53,443 nt of DNA from Sphingorhabdus sp. GTDB lineage: Bacteria; Pseudomonadota; Alphaproteobacteria; Sphingomonadales; Sphingomonadaceae. The stretch is from contig NZ_JBILAF010000001.1 in assembly GCF_044354325.1 (NCBI RefSeq), positions 1-53,443 on the forward strand, read 5' to 3'. Made by a program: the position numbers and the translations under genes. The notes beneath the pieces were generated by a model. The model saw only the letters and a program-made list of their open reading frames with translations, was not told the DNA's origin and did no database searches. Of this stretch, positions 14,393 to 38,481 are shown one piece after another. How positions within the stretch are numbered: position 1 is the first letter of the stretch; the number at the start of each line of letters is the position of its first letter.

Positions 14393-15013
14393 TTATGGTG
14401 ATATGCTTGGCTTGGGTTGTGGAGTATCTTTTGCCGCTTCCTTCGCGCGTTTGCGTGGCGCTGCTTTCACGCGCAGTGGTTCATCAGGCCCATTGATGAG
14501 CGCGGTCAAGGCAACGCGGCCACGCGCAAGCCGGCTTTTTACTGTCCCAATAGCGCAGCCCGTGATTTCGGCCGCCTCTTCATAGCTCGCACCACCTGCA
14601 CCAACGATCATGAGGATTTCGCGCTGCTCCGCGGGCAATTTTTGCAACGCCTTTTCGACATCTTGCATATGGATATAGTGCTGTTGCGGCGGAGCCTCGA
14701 CCAACAGCCGTTCTGCGGCCTCGGGATCCCAACTTGTCATGCGCGCATTTTTGCGCATCGTCGTGTAAAACTGGTTGCGCAATATCATGAACATCCAGGC
14801 GCGAAAGTTGGTACCAGGAGTGAAGCTTTCATGCGCGGCCCACGCCCGCATCATGGCCTCTTGCGCAAGATCATCGGCAAGCTCCCGATTTCCGCACAGG
14901 CCACGCGCAAACGCACGTAACGACGGAATAATCGCGATCATTTGTGCGCGAAAATCAGCGGATGCATCCGACTTTTCGGACTTAGGGATCGGTTCCGTCG
15001 CGGAACTACTCAC
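14393..15013 (-). CDS. ecfG: ECF sigma factor of the general stress response (ECF15)
   Basis: IPSLRAFARGLCG...ADDLAQE..MRAW....FTPGTNFRAWMF.ILRN; SYEEAAEI.GCAIGTVKSRLARGR; GTGA overlap with nepR. Confidence 0.92.
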   Translation of the reverse strand: MSSSATEPIPKSEKSDASADFRAQMIAIIPSLRAFARGLCGNRELADDLAQEAMMRAWAAHESFTPGTNFRAWMFMILRNQFYTTMRKNARMTSWDPEAAERLLVEAPPQQHYIHMQDVEKALQKLPAEQREILMIVGAGGASYEEAAEITGCAIGTVKSRLARGRVALTALINGPDEPLRVKAAPRKRAKEAAKDTPQPKPSISP

Positions 15014-15198
15014 TGGAACTTCTTCGACGCCGACATCTTTGCGTCAATCATATCCAGCAGGTTCAAAAAATCGTCAGGGATAGGTTCATTGGCAACGCTC
15101 TCGTGCATTTGACGCAGTGCAGCGGTCAATGGATCGAATTCAAAATCCATGTCTTCACCAATCGCGCCAAGCGGTTGCTTGCCCTTATTACTGCTCAC
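15010..15198 (-). CDS. nepR: Anti-sigma factor NepR
   Basis: L..ALRQMHESVANEPIPDDFLNLLD signature; GTG start after GGGAGGG; directly upstream of ecfG. Confidence 0.9.
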   Translation of the reverse strand: MSSNKGKQPLGAIGEDMDFEFDPLTAALRQMHESVANEPIPDDFLNLLDMIDAKMSASKKFQ

Positions 15199-15326: not shown

Positions 15327-15351
15327 AAGTCACGACGCGAGATAATGTTCC
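15327..15351 (-). promoter_or_regulatory. EcfG-type promoter for nepR-ecfG
   Basis: Minus strand GGAAC-N16-ACTT. Confidence 0.6.
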
Positions 15352-15358
15352 ATCGCAG

Positions 15359-15383
15359 GGAACAAAAAAGCGTTTCAAACGTA
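15359..15383 (+). promoter_or_regulatory. EcfG-type promoter for phyR
   Basis: GGAAC-N16-CGTA, back-to-back with the nepR promoter. Confidence 0.65.
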
Positions 15384-15410: not shown

Positions 15411-16193
15411 ATGTCATTTAGGCAACAACTGGCAATGCAATTGCCATACCTACGGCGTTACGCACGTGCACTGACGGGGTCACAGACATTGGGGGACGCA
15501 GCAGTACGCGAAACGCTCGAAGCGTTGTTGGAAGCACCCGAAGAGTGGGATGACGCAGCACCGGTGAAGACGGAGTTGTTCAGAACATTTCACCGCATTT
15601 GGCGTAGCGACATGATCGTGCCGCTCCAATCACGCGGCCGCAGCGGTGTCATCGCCGAATTTCCGATAAAGCGCCGTCAGAGCCTGCTTTTGTCCACGGT
15701 TGAAGGATTCAAGGCACATGAAGTGGCCAAAATATAGGGCATTTCGGAATCCGACGTAAACAGCCATGTTGTCGCTGCCCGAAGCGCCATTGAAGATGCG
15801 CTTTGTGAGCGCGTGCTCATTATTGAAGATGAAACGATCATCGCATTGCATATCAAACAGATCGTCGAAAATCTGGGGCATGAAGCGATCGCAATCGTCC
15901 GGACACGCGCAGAAGCAGTTGCAATGGCCCGCGATGAACGGCCTGAACTGATTTTGGCGGACATCAGCCTTGCGGACGGCTCAAGCGGTATAGATGCCGT
16001 AAAGGATATTCTGGCCGAACAGACCGTGCCAGTGATCTTCATTACAGCGTTCCCGGAAAGGCTACTTACTGGCGAGCGCCCAGAACCGACATATCTGATT
16101 ACAAAGCCGTTTGAGCCCGCAACGGTCATTGCAACCATCGGTCAGGCGCTGCTGATGCATCGTGAAATCGATATAAATTCCGAAGCCGCATAG
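15411..16193 (+). pseudogene. phyR: PhyR anti-anti-sigma response regulator interrupted by an in-frame TAG (15735-15737)
   Basis: Sigma-like domain (LPYLRRYARALTGSQ..GDA.V) and receiver domain (VLIIEDE..IAL, LILADISLADGSSG, FITAFPERLLTGERPEPTYLITKPF) lie in one frame of 260 codons, broken only by ...EVAKI*GISES... Confidence 0.9.
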
Positions 16194-16200
16194 TTATTCG

Positions 16201-16225
16201 GGAACAAAGTTTATTAAAGGACGTT
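16201..16225 (+). promoter_or_regulatory. Perfect-consensus EcfG promoter with no downstream CDS
   Basis: GGAAC-AAAGTTTATTAAAGGA-CGTT (GGAAC-N16-CGTT). Confidence 0.8.
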
Positions 16226-16230
16226 TGCCT

Positions 16231-16351
16231 TATCTGAATGACATAATCGTGCGCGAAGGTTCGCGTAAAACAGTTTACCCCGCCGGTCTCCCCCCCCACC
16301 ATTAGACCGGCACCCTAAACACCCCGGCTTATGGCTGGGGTGTTTTTCTTT
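16231..16351 (+). ncRNA. Candidate EcfG-dependent small RNA with a C-rich loop
   Basis: Follows the promoter; small hairpin 16250-16267, GCCGGTCT-[CCCCCCCCACCATT]-AGACCGGC hairpin 16282-16311, then a terminator. The 5' end is estimated. Confidence 0.7.
16317..16351 (+). terminator. Intrinsic terminator ending the candidate sRNA
   Basis: AAACACCCCGGC-TTATG-GCTGGGGTGTTT-TTCTTT. Confidence 0.85.
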
Positions 16352-16461: not shown

Positions 16462-17325
16462 TTATGTTGCGGGGATTAACAGCTTTGGATCAATGCGCGC
16501 ATTGTTCCATTTCATGCCCCAATGCAGATGTGGGCCGCTTGCCCGTCCCGTCGCGCCAACACGCCCGATGACTTGCCCCTGCTTCACATAATCGCCTTCT
16601 TTTACGAGCAGTTCGGAGCAGTGTAAAAATGCGCTGTTGAGGCCCATGCCATGATCAATCATCAGCAAATGCCCCTCCAGCGTGAAGGCATCTGTGGCCG
16701 CAAGCGTCACGACACCGTCCGCCGGTGCGACAAAATCTGTCCCATTCGGTGCGGCAATGTCCATGCCGCTATGATAGCTGCCGGGTATCCCGTTATAGAT
16801 ACGCTGCGCGCCAAATAGGCCAGACGTCCGGCCAGCCACTGGGCGCATAAATGCCTGCCGCCAGCCATTACCCAGCGTGGTTTTGGCCCGCGCTGCATTT
16901 ATGCGTTCGAGCTCCGCGCCGCGTCTTGCCGCAAACTCTGCCGTTGTTTTTGCGCCGCCCGTCGGGTTCGCAGAAACATGTTCAATCCGCCAGTTGCCCG
17001 GTGTTATGGCCAAAGTGCGATCCAGCGTTCGGCCATCGGCGAATGTCGCGGTCAGGATCGCGCTGCTTTCTGCATCGCGGTCAAAACCCATCAGGAAAAA
17101 GCCGTCGGCTGTCAGCGGCAGGGCAACGCCGTTAAGCGTGACGGACAGTGCACCGCTTGGCGCTCGCGCGATGACGAGACCCCCTTGTATCGCTGGCGCA
17201 GACATCCAGAAATCTGTGGGGGCAGATGGCTGTTGGGTATTTGCGGTTGGTGCGGCCGCGACGCTTAATGGCTGCGCGGCGATCCCCGCGAGGGCGGCTA
17301 AAAAAATCCAGCCGGAACGCTGCAA
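16462..17325 (-). CDS. M23 family metallopeptidase
   Basis: Signal peptide; HSGMD (HxxxD) and GPHLHW (HxH). Confidence 0.9.
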   Translation of the reverse strand: MQRSGWIFLAALAGIAAQPLSVAAAPTANTQQPSAPTDFWMSAPAIQGGLVIARAPSGALSVTLNGVALPLTADGFFLMGFDRDAESSAILTATFADGRTLDRTLAITPGNWRIEHVSANPTGGAKTTAEFAARRGAELERINAARAKTTLGNGWRQAFMRPVAGRTSGLFGAQRIYNGIPGSYHSGMDIAAPNGTDFVAPADGVVTLAATDAFTLEGHLLMIDHGMGLNSAFLHCSELLVKEGDYVKQGQVIGRVGATGRASGPHLHWGMKWNNARIDPKLLIPAT

Positions 17326-38391: not shown

Positions 38392-38481
38392 GGAGACGTG
38401 GCCGAGTGGTCGAAGGCGCACGCCTGGAAAGTGTGTATAGGGGTGACTCTATCGTGGGTTCGAATCCCACCGTCTCCGCCA
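38392..38481 (+). tRNA. tRNA-Ser (GGA)
   Basis: Acceptor stem GGAGACG/CGTCTCC, anticodon arm CACGC-CTGGAAA-GTGTG, long variable arm, GTGGG-TTCGAAT-CCCAC, encoded CCA. Confidence 0.97.

What the first reader, a model, noticed from the sequence alone, without database searches (positions are those of the whole stretch)
16201..16351. Candidate general-stress sRNA with a C-rich loop directly downstream of phyR
Seen: the only exact GGAAC-N16-CGTT among the promoters I found (16201-16225) drives no credible protein gene. It is followed by ~120 nt with a small hairpin, a perfect 8-bp stem (GCCGGTCT/AGACCGGC) carrying a 14-nt CCCCCCCCACCATT loop, and a strong terminator. Known: alphaproteobacterial sRNAs such as Caulobacter GsrN (sigmaT-dependent) and the SuhB/MmgR family use C-rich loops to pair with G-rich mRNA leaders. 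Inference: this is an RNA arm of the EcfG regulon encoded in the core GSR locus. Its UCUCCC/poly-C segment complements ribosome-binding sites in the island (GGGAGA of the GlsB gene, GGGAG of phyR, GGGAGGG of nepR), so it may form a feedback loop.
Basis: partly seen in the sequence, partly recalled or inferred. Interest (0 to 1): 0.8.

Follow-up and report, generated by a model that had tools for sequence, protein, structure and literature searches.

The report
Stress-sigma small RNA behind phyR
Right behind the stress-regulator gene phyR lies a conserved, non-coding, hairpin-forming stretch with a general-stress (EcfG-type) promoter motif and a cytosine-rich loop; it is likely a small regulatory RNA of an already known kind (like Caulobacter GsrN) but of a new sequence family, and in a sister lineage a similar hairpin ends a stress-protein gene, which hints that such RNAs may arise by loss of the coding part.

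Summary
The anatomy is real. Promoter motif, C-loop hairpin and terminator recur directly behind phyR in 34 of 81 genomes of the same genus (Sphingorhabdus-like). The promoter boxes stay fixed while the spacer drifts, and the stems covary. No conserved ORF exists; the 5' arm and its small hairpin are variable. It is not GsrN (Rfam RF01529), cuckoo or SuhB, but works like GsrN and ReC64, a published kind of EcfG-driven sRNA beside the stress locus. This scan noted the same kind on other DNA (Oceanicaulis, Erythrobacteraceae, Rhizobiales). The proposed feedback on phyR, nepR and glsB is unsupported: pairing is unremarkable genome-wide, loop and nepR leader do not covary, and GsrN has no such feedback. 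Expression is not shown. New here: a sister clade carries a similar C-loop hairpin in the 3'UTR of an EcfG-promoter PRC-barrel gene, and two genomes have cut that ORF to 20 codons while keeping promoter and hairpins. That is a possible 3'UTR-to-sRNA intermediate, but its homology to the window's RNA is weak. This genome's phyR carries a premature stop.

The parts
16201..16225 (+). EcfG-type promoter motif, GGAAC-N16-CGTT
   Evidence: In 31 aligned orthologs, column conservation is 1.00 for the -35 box and 0.90 for the -10 box, but 0.52 for the spacer. Consensus as in Sphingopyxis (PMC7083833).
16231..16351 (+). Predicted ~120-nt small RNA (start inferred about 6 nt after the -10 box; not mapped)
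   Evidence: Fold z = -4.5; orthologs; no Rfam family.
16231..16281 (+). Variable 5' arm, including a small hairpin at 16250-16267
   Evidence: Conservation 0.54 over 16226-16281; about 25 to 60 nt long between orthologs, hairpin absent in the short forms; no ATG in many orthologs.
16282..16311 (+). Conserved hairpin with a C-rich loop (loop 16290-16303), the presumed seed
   Evidence: Outer 6 pairs kept in 99.4% of cells, 2 pairs with two-sided changes (U-A/C-G); stem conservation 0.91-0.92; a C-run in every ortholog.
16317..16351 (+). Intrinsic terminator, unusually conserved in sequence; probably also ends the phyR mRNA
   Evidence: 11 pairs kept in 99.1% of cells, 3 with two-sided changes; arm conservation 0.94-0.95.
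15411..16193 (+). phyR (anti-anti-sigma factor), interrupted by an in-frame TAG at 15735-15737 in this genome
   Evidence: Leu codon in the closest relatives and in DNA runs X2 and X7.
15010..15198 (-). nepR (anti-sigma factor); start inferred at the GTG behind a GGGAGGG ribosome-binding site
   Evidence: PF18557 and NF051865; start position shared by relatives.
14393..15013 (-). ecfG (ECF sigma factor)
   Evidence: divergent from phyR and behind nepR.
16462..17325 (-). Convergent M23 peptidase gene, right boundary of the spacer
   Evidence: PF01551.

Best explanation
This is a conserved non-coding unit behind phyR that is likely transcribed from its own EcfG promoter as a ~120-nt small RNA and predicted to regulate other mRNAs by pairing its single-stranded C-rich loop with G-rich sites, probably with Hfq. 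Shown: promoter motif, hairpins, conservation, covariation, no conserved ORF, an hfq gene in the genome. Inferred: stress frees EcfG from NepR through PhyR; EcfG transcribes the RNA; the 3' hairpin with its U-tail ends and protects it; the loop is the seed; the 5' arm is dispensable. It likely acts as a downstream output of the general stress response, as GsrN does, not as a feedback regulator of phyR/nepR/ecfG. No terminator separates phyR from it, so it is probably also the 3' end of the phyR mRNA.
For: Model R1 gives 34 matches of 57-88 bits in 34 of 81 genus genomes; the next best is 36 bits (about 27 of the 34 helped build the model). 32 lie behind a PhyR match, one behind a phyR remnant, one at a deletion of the locus. 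33 of 34 keep GGAAC-N17-GTT. Of 33 genomes with this clade's phyR, 32 have the RNA. Structure: 98.7% of 539 cells paired, 6 of 18 pairs with two-sided changes, covariation reached by 0 of 500 shuffles, slid controls 33-47% paired (structure derived from the same alignment). In Sphingobium, Sphingomonas and Sphingomicrobium the same slot holds a short membrane-protein-like ORF, often behind GGAAC..GTT, so it is an EcfG-driven slot. Hfq present. Precedents: GsrN homologs typically lie by the GSR genes and use a C-loop (PMC5869019); ReC64 is EcfG-dependent and lies behind the phyR-tcrY locus (PMC3892343).
Against: No transcript start, Northern or Hfq data. No target stands out, and genes with EcfG-like promoters pair worse than average with the loop (23 vs 1837 leaders, one-sided p = 0.98). 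One relative with intact ecfG-nepR-phyR lacks the RNA (L046/G013). Five relatives keep the hairpins although ecfG was not found in them (0 of 5, two only 85-88% complete), and this genome's phyR is broken, so the RNA may be silent or vestigial in some strains. Covariation rests on few pairs among close kin.
Confidence: 0.75

Rival explanations
1. The hairpins are only the 3' end of the phyR mRNA (stabilising hairpin plus terminator, perhaps shared with the convergent M23 gene), and the promoter is a leftover from a lost stress gene; no trans-acting RNA is made.
For: The promoter begins only 6-16 nt after the phyR stop, or overlaps it, with no terminator between. Hairpin and terminator survive deletion of the promoter and of all three regulators in G089. 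A similar hairpin pair serves as a 3'UTR in the sister clade.
Against: A leftover promoter should decay, yet both boxes are fixed around a free spacer in 33 of 34 genomes whose PhyR proteins differ by up to 29%. A terminator does not need an upstream hairpin with a constant C-run or near-invariant stem sequence.
Confidence: 0.13
2. The RNA is real and feeds back on the stress switch by covering the G-rich ribosome-binding site of nepR (or of phyR or glsB).
For: The nepR site GGGAGGG is rare (6 of 1860 leaders) and complements the CCCUCCC of many orthologous loops; 12 of 20 ortholog pairs fell in the best 5%. nepR mRNA co-purified with GsrN (PMC5869019).
Against: In this genome nepR ranks only 186-270 of 1860, phyR and glsB far lower. 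No covariation. Equally G-rich nepR regions occur in 52 loci without this RNA, though those genomes may hold other C-loop RNAs. GsrN does not feed back.
Confidence: 0.08
3. The unit makes a tiny peptide, or acts by binding a protein through its C-rich loop instead of pairing with mRNAs.
For: In other sphingomonads this slot encodes a short peptide; two sister-clade genomes keep a 20-codon ORF with a ribosome-binding site in front of the hairpins.
Against: Many orthologs have no ATG in the transcript, and its position varies in the rest. The 5' arm changes length freely. Exposed C-loops in GsrN act by base pairing.
Confidence: 0.04

Closest known systems
GsrN of Caulobacter crescentus and Caulobacteraceae (Tien et al. 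2018, PMC5869019; Rfam RF01529 'CC3552')
   Same: EcfG/sigmaT promoter, about 100-120 nt, exposed C-rich loop, intrinsic terminator, position by the GSR genes. GsrN homologs lay about 0.5-0.7 kb behind phyR in 7 of 30 Caulobacterales-order loci.
   Different: No sequence or model match: RF01529 scored 98 and 86 bits on two GsrN loci but did not appear for this element at E <= 10, and R1 matched none of the 7. GsrN's C-loop is at the 5' end inside a long stem with a side hairpin, followed by a single-stranded 3' part; here it is a simple hairpin just before the terminator, behind a variable 5' arm.
ReC64 of Rhizobium etli (Jans et al. 2013, PMC3892343)
   Same: 88-nt ncRNA behind the phyR-tcrY locus with a mapped, EcfG-dependent promoter (passages).
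   Different: Sequence not compared here; reported only from rhizobia; a histidine kinase gene lies between it and phyR.
Cuckoo RNAs (RSs0680/CcsR and relatives; PMC4615179)
   Same: C-rich anti-Shine-Dalgarno-like hairpin loops; stress-sigma control; RSs0680 is co-transcribed behind a small gene, like the sister-clade form.
   Different: Cuckoo RNAs have 2-4 hairpins, each with CCUCCUCCC. This element has one C-loop hairpin and lacks the motif; no Rfam match. One sister-clade loop (L076) contains the motif once.
SuhB/MmgR (Rfam RF00519)
   Same: Small alphaproteobacterial sRNA linked to stress survival in Sphingopyxis.
   Different: No match. SuhB is LysR-activated and largely independent of the GSR.
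OxyS origin from a peroxidase mRNA (Krieger et al. 2022, PMC8825220)
   Same: Precedent for an sRNA replacing its parent protein gene and inheriting its regulon (abstract).
   Different: Other organisms and regulon; OxyS arose from an mRNA fragment, whereas here a ready-made 3'UTR hairpin would be freed by an internal ORF deletion.

Membership tests
GsrN family (RF01529) | Match to the covariance model or to GsrN sequence | tested here: not met
   No RF01529 match at E <= 10; control loci score 98 and 86 bits; R1 misses all 7 GsrN loci.
GsrN family (RF01529) | [quoted passage not shown] | tested here: not met
   Loop starts about 60 nt after the inferred start, in a simple hairpin next to the terminator.
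GsrN-like kind (EcfG-driven C-loop sRNA at the GSR locus) | Near-consensus EcfG site upstream | tested here: met
   Exact match; boxes conserved in 33 of 34 orthologs.
GsrN-like kind (EcfG-driven C-loop sRNA at the GSR locus) | Close to ecfG-nepR-phyR | tested here: met
   Promoter starts 8 nt after the phyR stop; same position in relatives.
GsrN-like kind (EcfG-driven C-loop sRNA at the GSR locus) | Exposed cytosine-rich loop | tested here: met
   Predicted unpaired in MFE, centroid and consensus folds.
GsrN-like kind (EcfG-driven C-loop sRNA at the GSR locus) | Intergenic transcription | tested here: inconclusive
   Only assembled contigs of RNA libraries were available; they cannot show a start or strand.
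GsrN-like kind (EcfG-driven C-loop sRNA at the GSR locus) | EcfG dependence, Hfq binding, target regulation by the loop | not testable with these tools
   Needs mutants and RNA work; hfq is present.
Cuckoo family | 2-4 adjacent hairpins, each loop with CCUCCUCCC | tested here: not met
   One C-loop hairpin, motif absent in the window's loop; definition.
SuhB/MmgR (RF00519) | Match to the covariance model | tested here: not met

The most novel reading that the evidence does not exclude
This sRNA was born from the 3'UTR of an EcfG-controlled PRC-barrel mRNA by deletion of the reading frame, and all three stages survive in one genus: intact gene with C-loop 3'UTR, 20-codon remnant, ORF-free sRNA. 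Together with the unrelated C-loop RNAs at the stress loci of Sphingomonas, Oceanicaulis and Caulobacteraceae, this would mean that the alphaproteobacterial stress response has repeatedly recruited a C-rich seed RNA by independent routes.
Probability: 0.35. Interest if true: 0.65.

Novelty: new member of a known kind. Interest (0 to 1): 0.4.

Why it matters
It adds a sequence family, absent from Rfam and not found in the papers searched, to the GsrN-like stress sRNAs, in an order whose one surveyed species was said to have none (PMC5869019). It supports the view that an RNA arm is a general part of the EcfG response. The less ordinary point is evolutionary: the sister-clade series shows one in-frame 303-nt deletion turning an EcfG-promoter mRNA into an almost non-coding unit that keeps its C-loop hairpin. 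That is a testable case of sRNA birth with inherited regulation, whether or not the window's RNA took the same route.

Tried and rejected
Rfam: no family at gathering score in the window except a tRNA; only weak terminator-type matches at E <= 10. BLAST of 251 nt found 2 good matches and 1 weak true match in 60 relatives and missed most orthologs. My first pair count used a mis-registered structure string and is void; one search replaces it. One search replaces the unoriented comparison, and the failed pattern. A stem-and-terminator pattern over 301 genomes hit 291 and says nothing. A short GsrN motif over 121 Caulobacterales-order genomes gave 2 unrelated matches; GsrN loci were then reached through phyR. 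Order-wide search with R1: nothing above 39 bits in 146 genomes outside the genus. None of 27 such loci held GSR genes and none of 18 inspected had the promoter within 90 nt. This search loses weak homologs: it missed a 31-bit sister-clade match in the genome of L093. No paralog in this genome. Expression: contigs of four RNA libraries run from phyR to about 16236-16293, none listed crosses the C-loop, they come from related strains and DNA carry-over is not excluded; a fifth RNA run covers only phyR. No conclusion drawn. Targets: best loop partners (an alpha/beta hydrolase, a radical-SAM protein, DUF7010, two symporters, a PPIase) form no stress theme and their conservation was not tested; gene starts came from my own simple caller. 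katG is intact and ranks 165-626 of 1860. A long loop-nepR match in L056/L059 lay at the far 5' end and did not generalise. Retention of the hairpins in five ecfG-less genomes is not evidence of selection: they were found through the RNA, and most of the deletable span lies upstream of the hairpin. The PhyR tree is the quick search; the careful one did not finish. The third RNA model was not built.

Full report
Observation. The sequence is as described. GGAAC-N16-CGTT at 16201-16225 is the only GGAAC-N15-17-CGTT match in the window, but one match is what chance gives (1.31 expected). The stretch 16231-16351 folds into a small hairpin, an 8-bp hairpin with a 14-nt C-rich loop, and a terminator (-44.3 kcal/mol, z -4.5). 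No sigma-70-type promoter was found nearby. Rfam has no family for it. Of 165 GGAAC..GTT sites in the 2.1-Mb genome, only this one is followed by an enclosed C-rich loop and a terminator.

Setting. Upstream lie ecfG and nepR (minus strand) and phyR (plus strand), with glsB- and csbD-type genes further left; an M23 peptidase gene converges from the right. The nearest titled records are Sphingorhabdus (83-89% PhyR identity), so the genus name is inferred. phyR has an in-frame TAG at 15735-15737. The closest relatives and two other DNA runs have a Leu codon there, while the main contig of the run that may be the source carries the stop.

Conservation. PhyR was found in 46 of 81 genus genomes. Behind 29 of the 30 closest phyR genes lies the same unit: promoter, variable arm, hairpin with C-run, terminator. 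In 31 aligned units the -35 box is invariant and the -10 box 0.90 conserved, against 0.52 for the spacer and 0.54 for the 5' arm; the stems score 0.91-0.95. In 30 core sequences 98.7% of cells pair and 6 of 18 pairs show two-sided changes, 2 of them in the C-loop stem; no shuffle of 500 reaches the covariation score, and slid controls pair at 33-47%. Relatedness inflates these figures. A covariance model (R1) gives 34 matches of 57-88 bits in 34 of 81 genus genomes, most of them training sequences, and then drops to 36 bits. Outside the genus nothing exceeded 39 bits in 146 genomes of the order, but that search loses weak homologs. On a quick PhyR tree of 65 rows the carriers form one clade (support 98) with the single non-carrier nested inside. 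No ORF is conserved. Fixed promoter boxes around a free spacer, and a constant C-loop hairpin beside the terminator, are what a sigma-factor-driven sRNA gene looks like. A bare terminator would not need them.

Family. The GsrN sequence in the supplement of PMC5869019 agrees, by eye, with the consensus of Rfam RF01529. Seven of 30 Caulobacterales-order phyR loci carry GsrN homologs; the two tested score 98 and 86 bits on RF01529. The window's element does not match that model, and R1 does not match those loci. The layout differs too. So it is not a GsrN. It does meet the genomic criteria that paper used for GsrN-like RNAs (EcfG site, closeness to the GSR genes, exposed C-loop); its third criterion, intergenic transcription, is untested here. 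ReC64 of R. etli is a second, experimentally EcfG-dependent precedent. Cuckoo and SuhB definitions are not met. Five literature searches found no report of this RNA in Sphingorhabdus. I did not see the supplements of PMC7083833 or of the bioRxiv papers, which might list sphingomonad sRNAs. Earlier notes of this scan describe the same kind on other DNA; none matched this sequence.

Mechanism. Most likely EcfG transcribes a ~120-nt RNA under stress and its unpaired C-run pairs with G-rich mRNA sites, aided by Hfq (present). These steps are inferred from GsrN. The feedback idea does not hold up computationally: glsB, phyR and nepR rank 394-1126, 582-1126 and 186-270 of 1860 leaders. Loops show no covariation with their own nepR or phyR regions in 13 representatives, and nepR regions are as G-rich in 52 loci without this RNA. 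A cruder test did put 12 of 20 ortholog loop-nepR pairs in the best 5%, so nepR is not excluded. GsrN binds nepR-sigT mRNA without feedback. No convincing target emerged. Public RNA data were contigs only and decide nothing.

Against a simple picture. One genome with intact regulators lacks the RNA (L046). Five keep the hairpins though ecfG was not found in them; four still have the promoter, and in G089 a deletion ends right at the hairpin. With this genome's broken phyR, the locus seems to decay often in the genus, so the RNA may be silent in some strains.

Possible origin. A sister group with a more distant PhyR (61-67% identity) has a similar hairpin (GCTGG, C-rich loop, CCAGC) and terminator directly behind a 121-aa PRC-barrel gene (PF05239) in the phyR region: six distinct sequences with an EcfG-type promoter before the gene plus L287, whose promoter I did not check. 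In G102 and G074 one shared in-frame 303-nt deletion has cut that gene to 20 codons, keeping promoter, ribosome-binding site and both hairpins; the two are sisters next to the intact G004. None of 30 PRC-barrel loci from other genera shows the hairpin. In the genus, one close PRC copy (L285) gave no match and a second copy in the same genome (L300) a weaker one. Homology to the window's RNA is plausible but weak. R1 scores the sister form at 25-34 bits, within terminator background. A model built only from the sister form (R2) hits 21 of 22 clade-A sources at the right place but at 13-21 bits, some through the terminator alone. It ranks the window's element first in 6 kb (13 bits) but does not list it genome-wide. 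A stand-alone copy of the sister form right behind an EcfG-type promoter in a Novosphingobium record (L090) leaves the overall direction open. OxyS is the known precedent for an sRNA replacing its parent gene (PMC8825220, abstract).

Papers seen: passages of PMC5869019 (plus term searches in its supplementary files), 10.1101/344820, 10.64898/2025.12.09.693200, PMC7083833, PMC4615179 and PMC3892343; abstract of PMC8825220; the rest as search listings only.

Verdict. A real, conserved sRNA candidate; a new sequence family of a known kind, found only in one clade of one genus among the genomes searched; feedback unsupported; expression unshown. Interest 0.4, most of it from the possible 3'UTR-to-sRNA series.

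Noticed in passing
window 15735-15737: phyR has an in-frame TAG where relatives have Leu, splitting the sigma-like and receiver domains. The main contig of the possible source run carries it, a second thin contig there and two other DNA runs do not.
   Followed up: partly
L106 minus strand from 912; also L105, L113, L118, L121, L124, L125, L128, L129, L133, L134, L136, L137, L139: A different, highly conserved ~100-nt unit with an EcfG-type promoter and two C-loop hairpins, about 2 kb upstream of phyR on the opposite strand, in 14 of the 80 loci (mostly Sphingomonas and Sphingomicrobium titles). Its 5' loop resembles GsrN's by eye, but 3 tested loci gave no Rfam match at gathering score.
   Followed up: partly
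L108 minus strand from 5175; L264 plus strand from 132: Oceanicaulis unit with EcfG-type promoter, 5' hairpin, C-loop hairpin and terminator: same layout as the window's RNA, different sequence.
   Followed up: partly
L176:2436-2630 and L187:2839-3033 (minus), versus L177: PRC-barrel gene reduced to 20 codons by one shared 303-nt in-frame deletion, with promoter, ribosome-binding site and 3' hairpins intact.
   Followed up: yes
L090:5992-6110 (+), L091:6048-6169 (-), L079 minus strand from 1095, L087:748-837 (+): Further C-loop hairpin plus terminator units near phyR in Novosphingobium and other sphingomonad records, behind a promoter or as a 3'UTR.
   Followed up: no
G064, G070, G082, G089, G100 (L181, L175, L182, L174, L183): Deletions with different right-hand endpoints remove ecfG-nepR and part or all of phyR; PhyR was not found in 35 of 81 genus genomes. 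The stress switch seems to be lost repeatedly in this small-genome genus.
   Followed up: partly
L096-L140, directly behind phyR: In Sphingobium, Sphingomonas and Sphingomicrobium records the slot holds a conserved ~40-50-aa ORF with a hydrophobic C-terminus, often behind an EcfG-type promoter; not identified.
   Followed up: no
L271 (G000:C74:1007-1438): Two tandem Hfq domains in one open frame of 181 aa.
   Followed up: no
L149 and L152, around 1501: 3'UTRs that follow what looks like a katG C-terminus (read by eye) carry a hairpin with a short C-run before the terminator.
   Followed up: no
L186, L177, L176, L184, L187, L188: PhyR of the sister clade runs on for about 95 extra C-terminal residues in frame (open frames of about 350 aa); no Pfam match.
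   Followed up: partly
window 15330-15361 minus strand, and clade relatives: The nepR-ecfG promoter of this clade has a non-consensus -10 box (mostly xCTT rather than CGTT) behind an intact GGAAC.
   Followed up: no
window 38392-38478: tRNA gene, the only Rfam match in the window.
   Followed up: no
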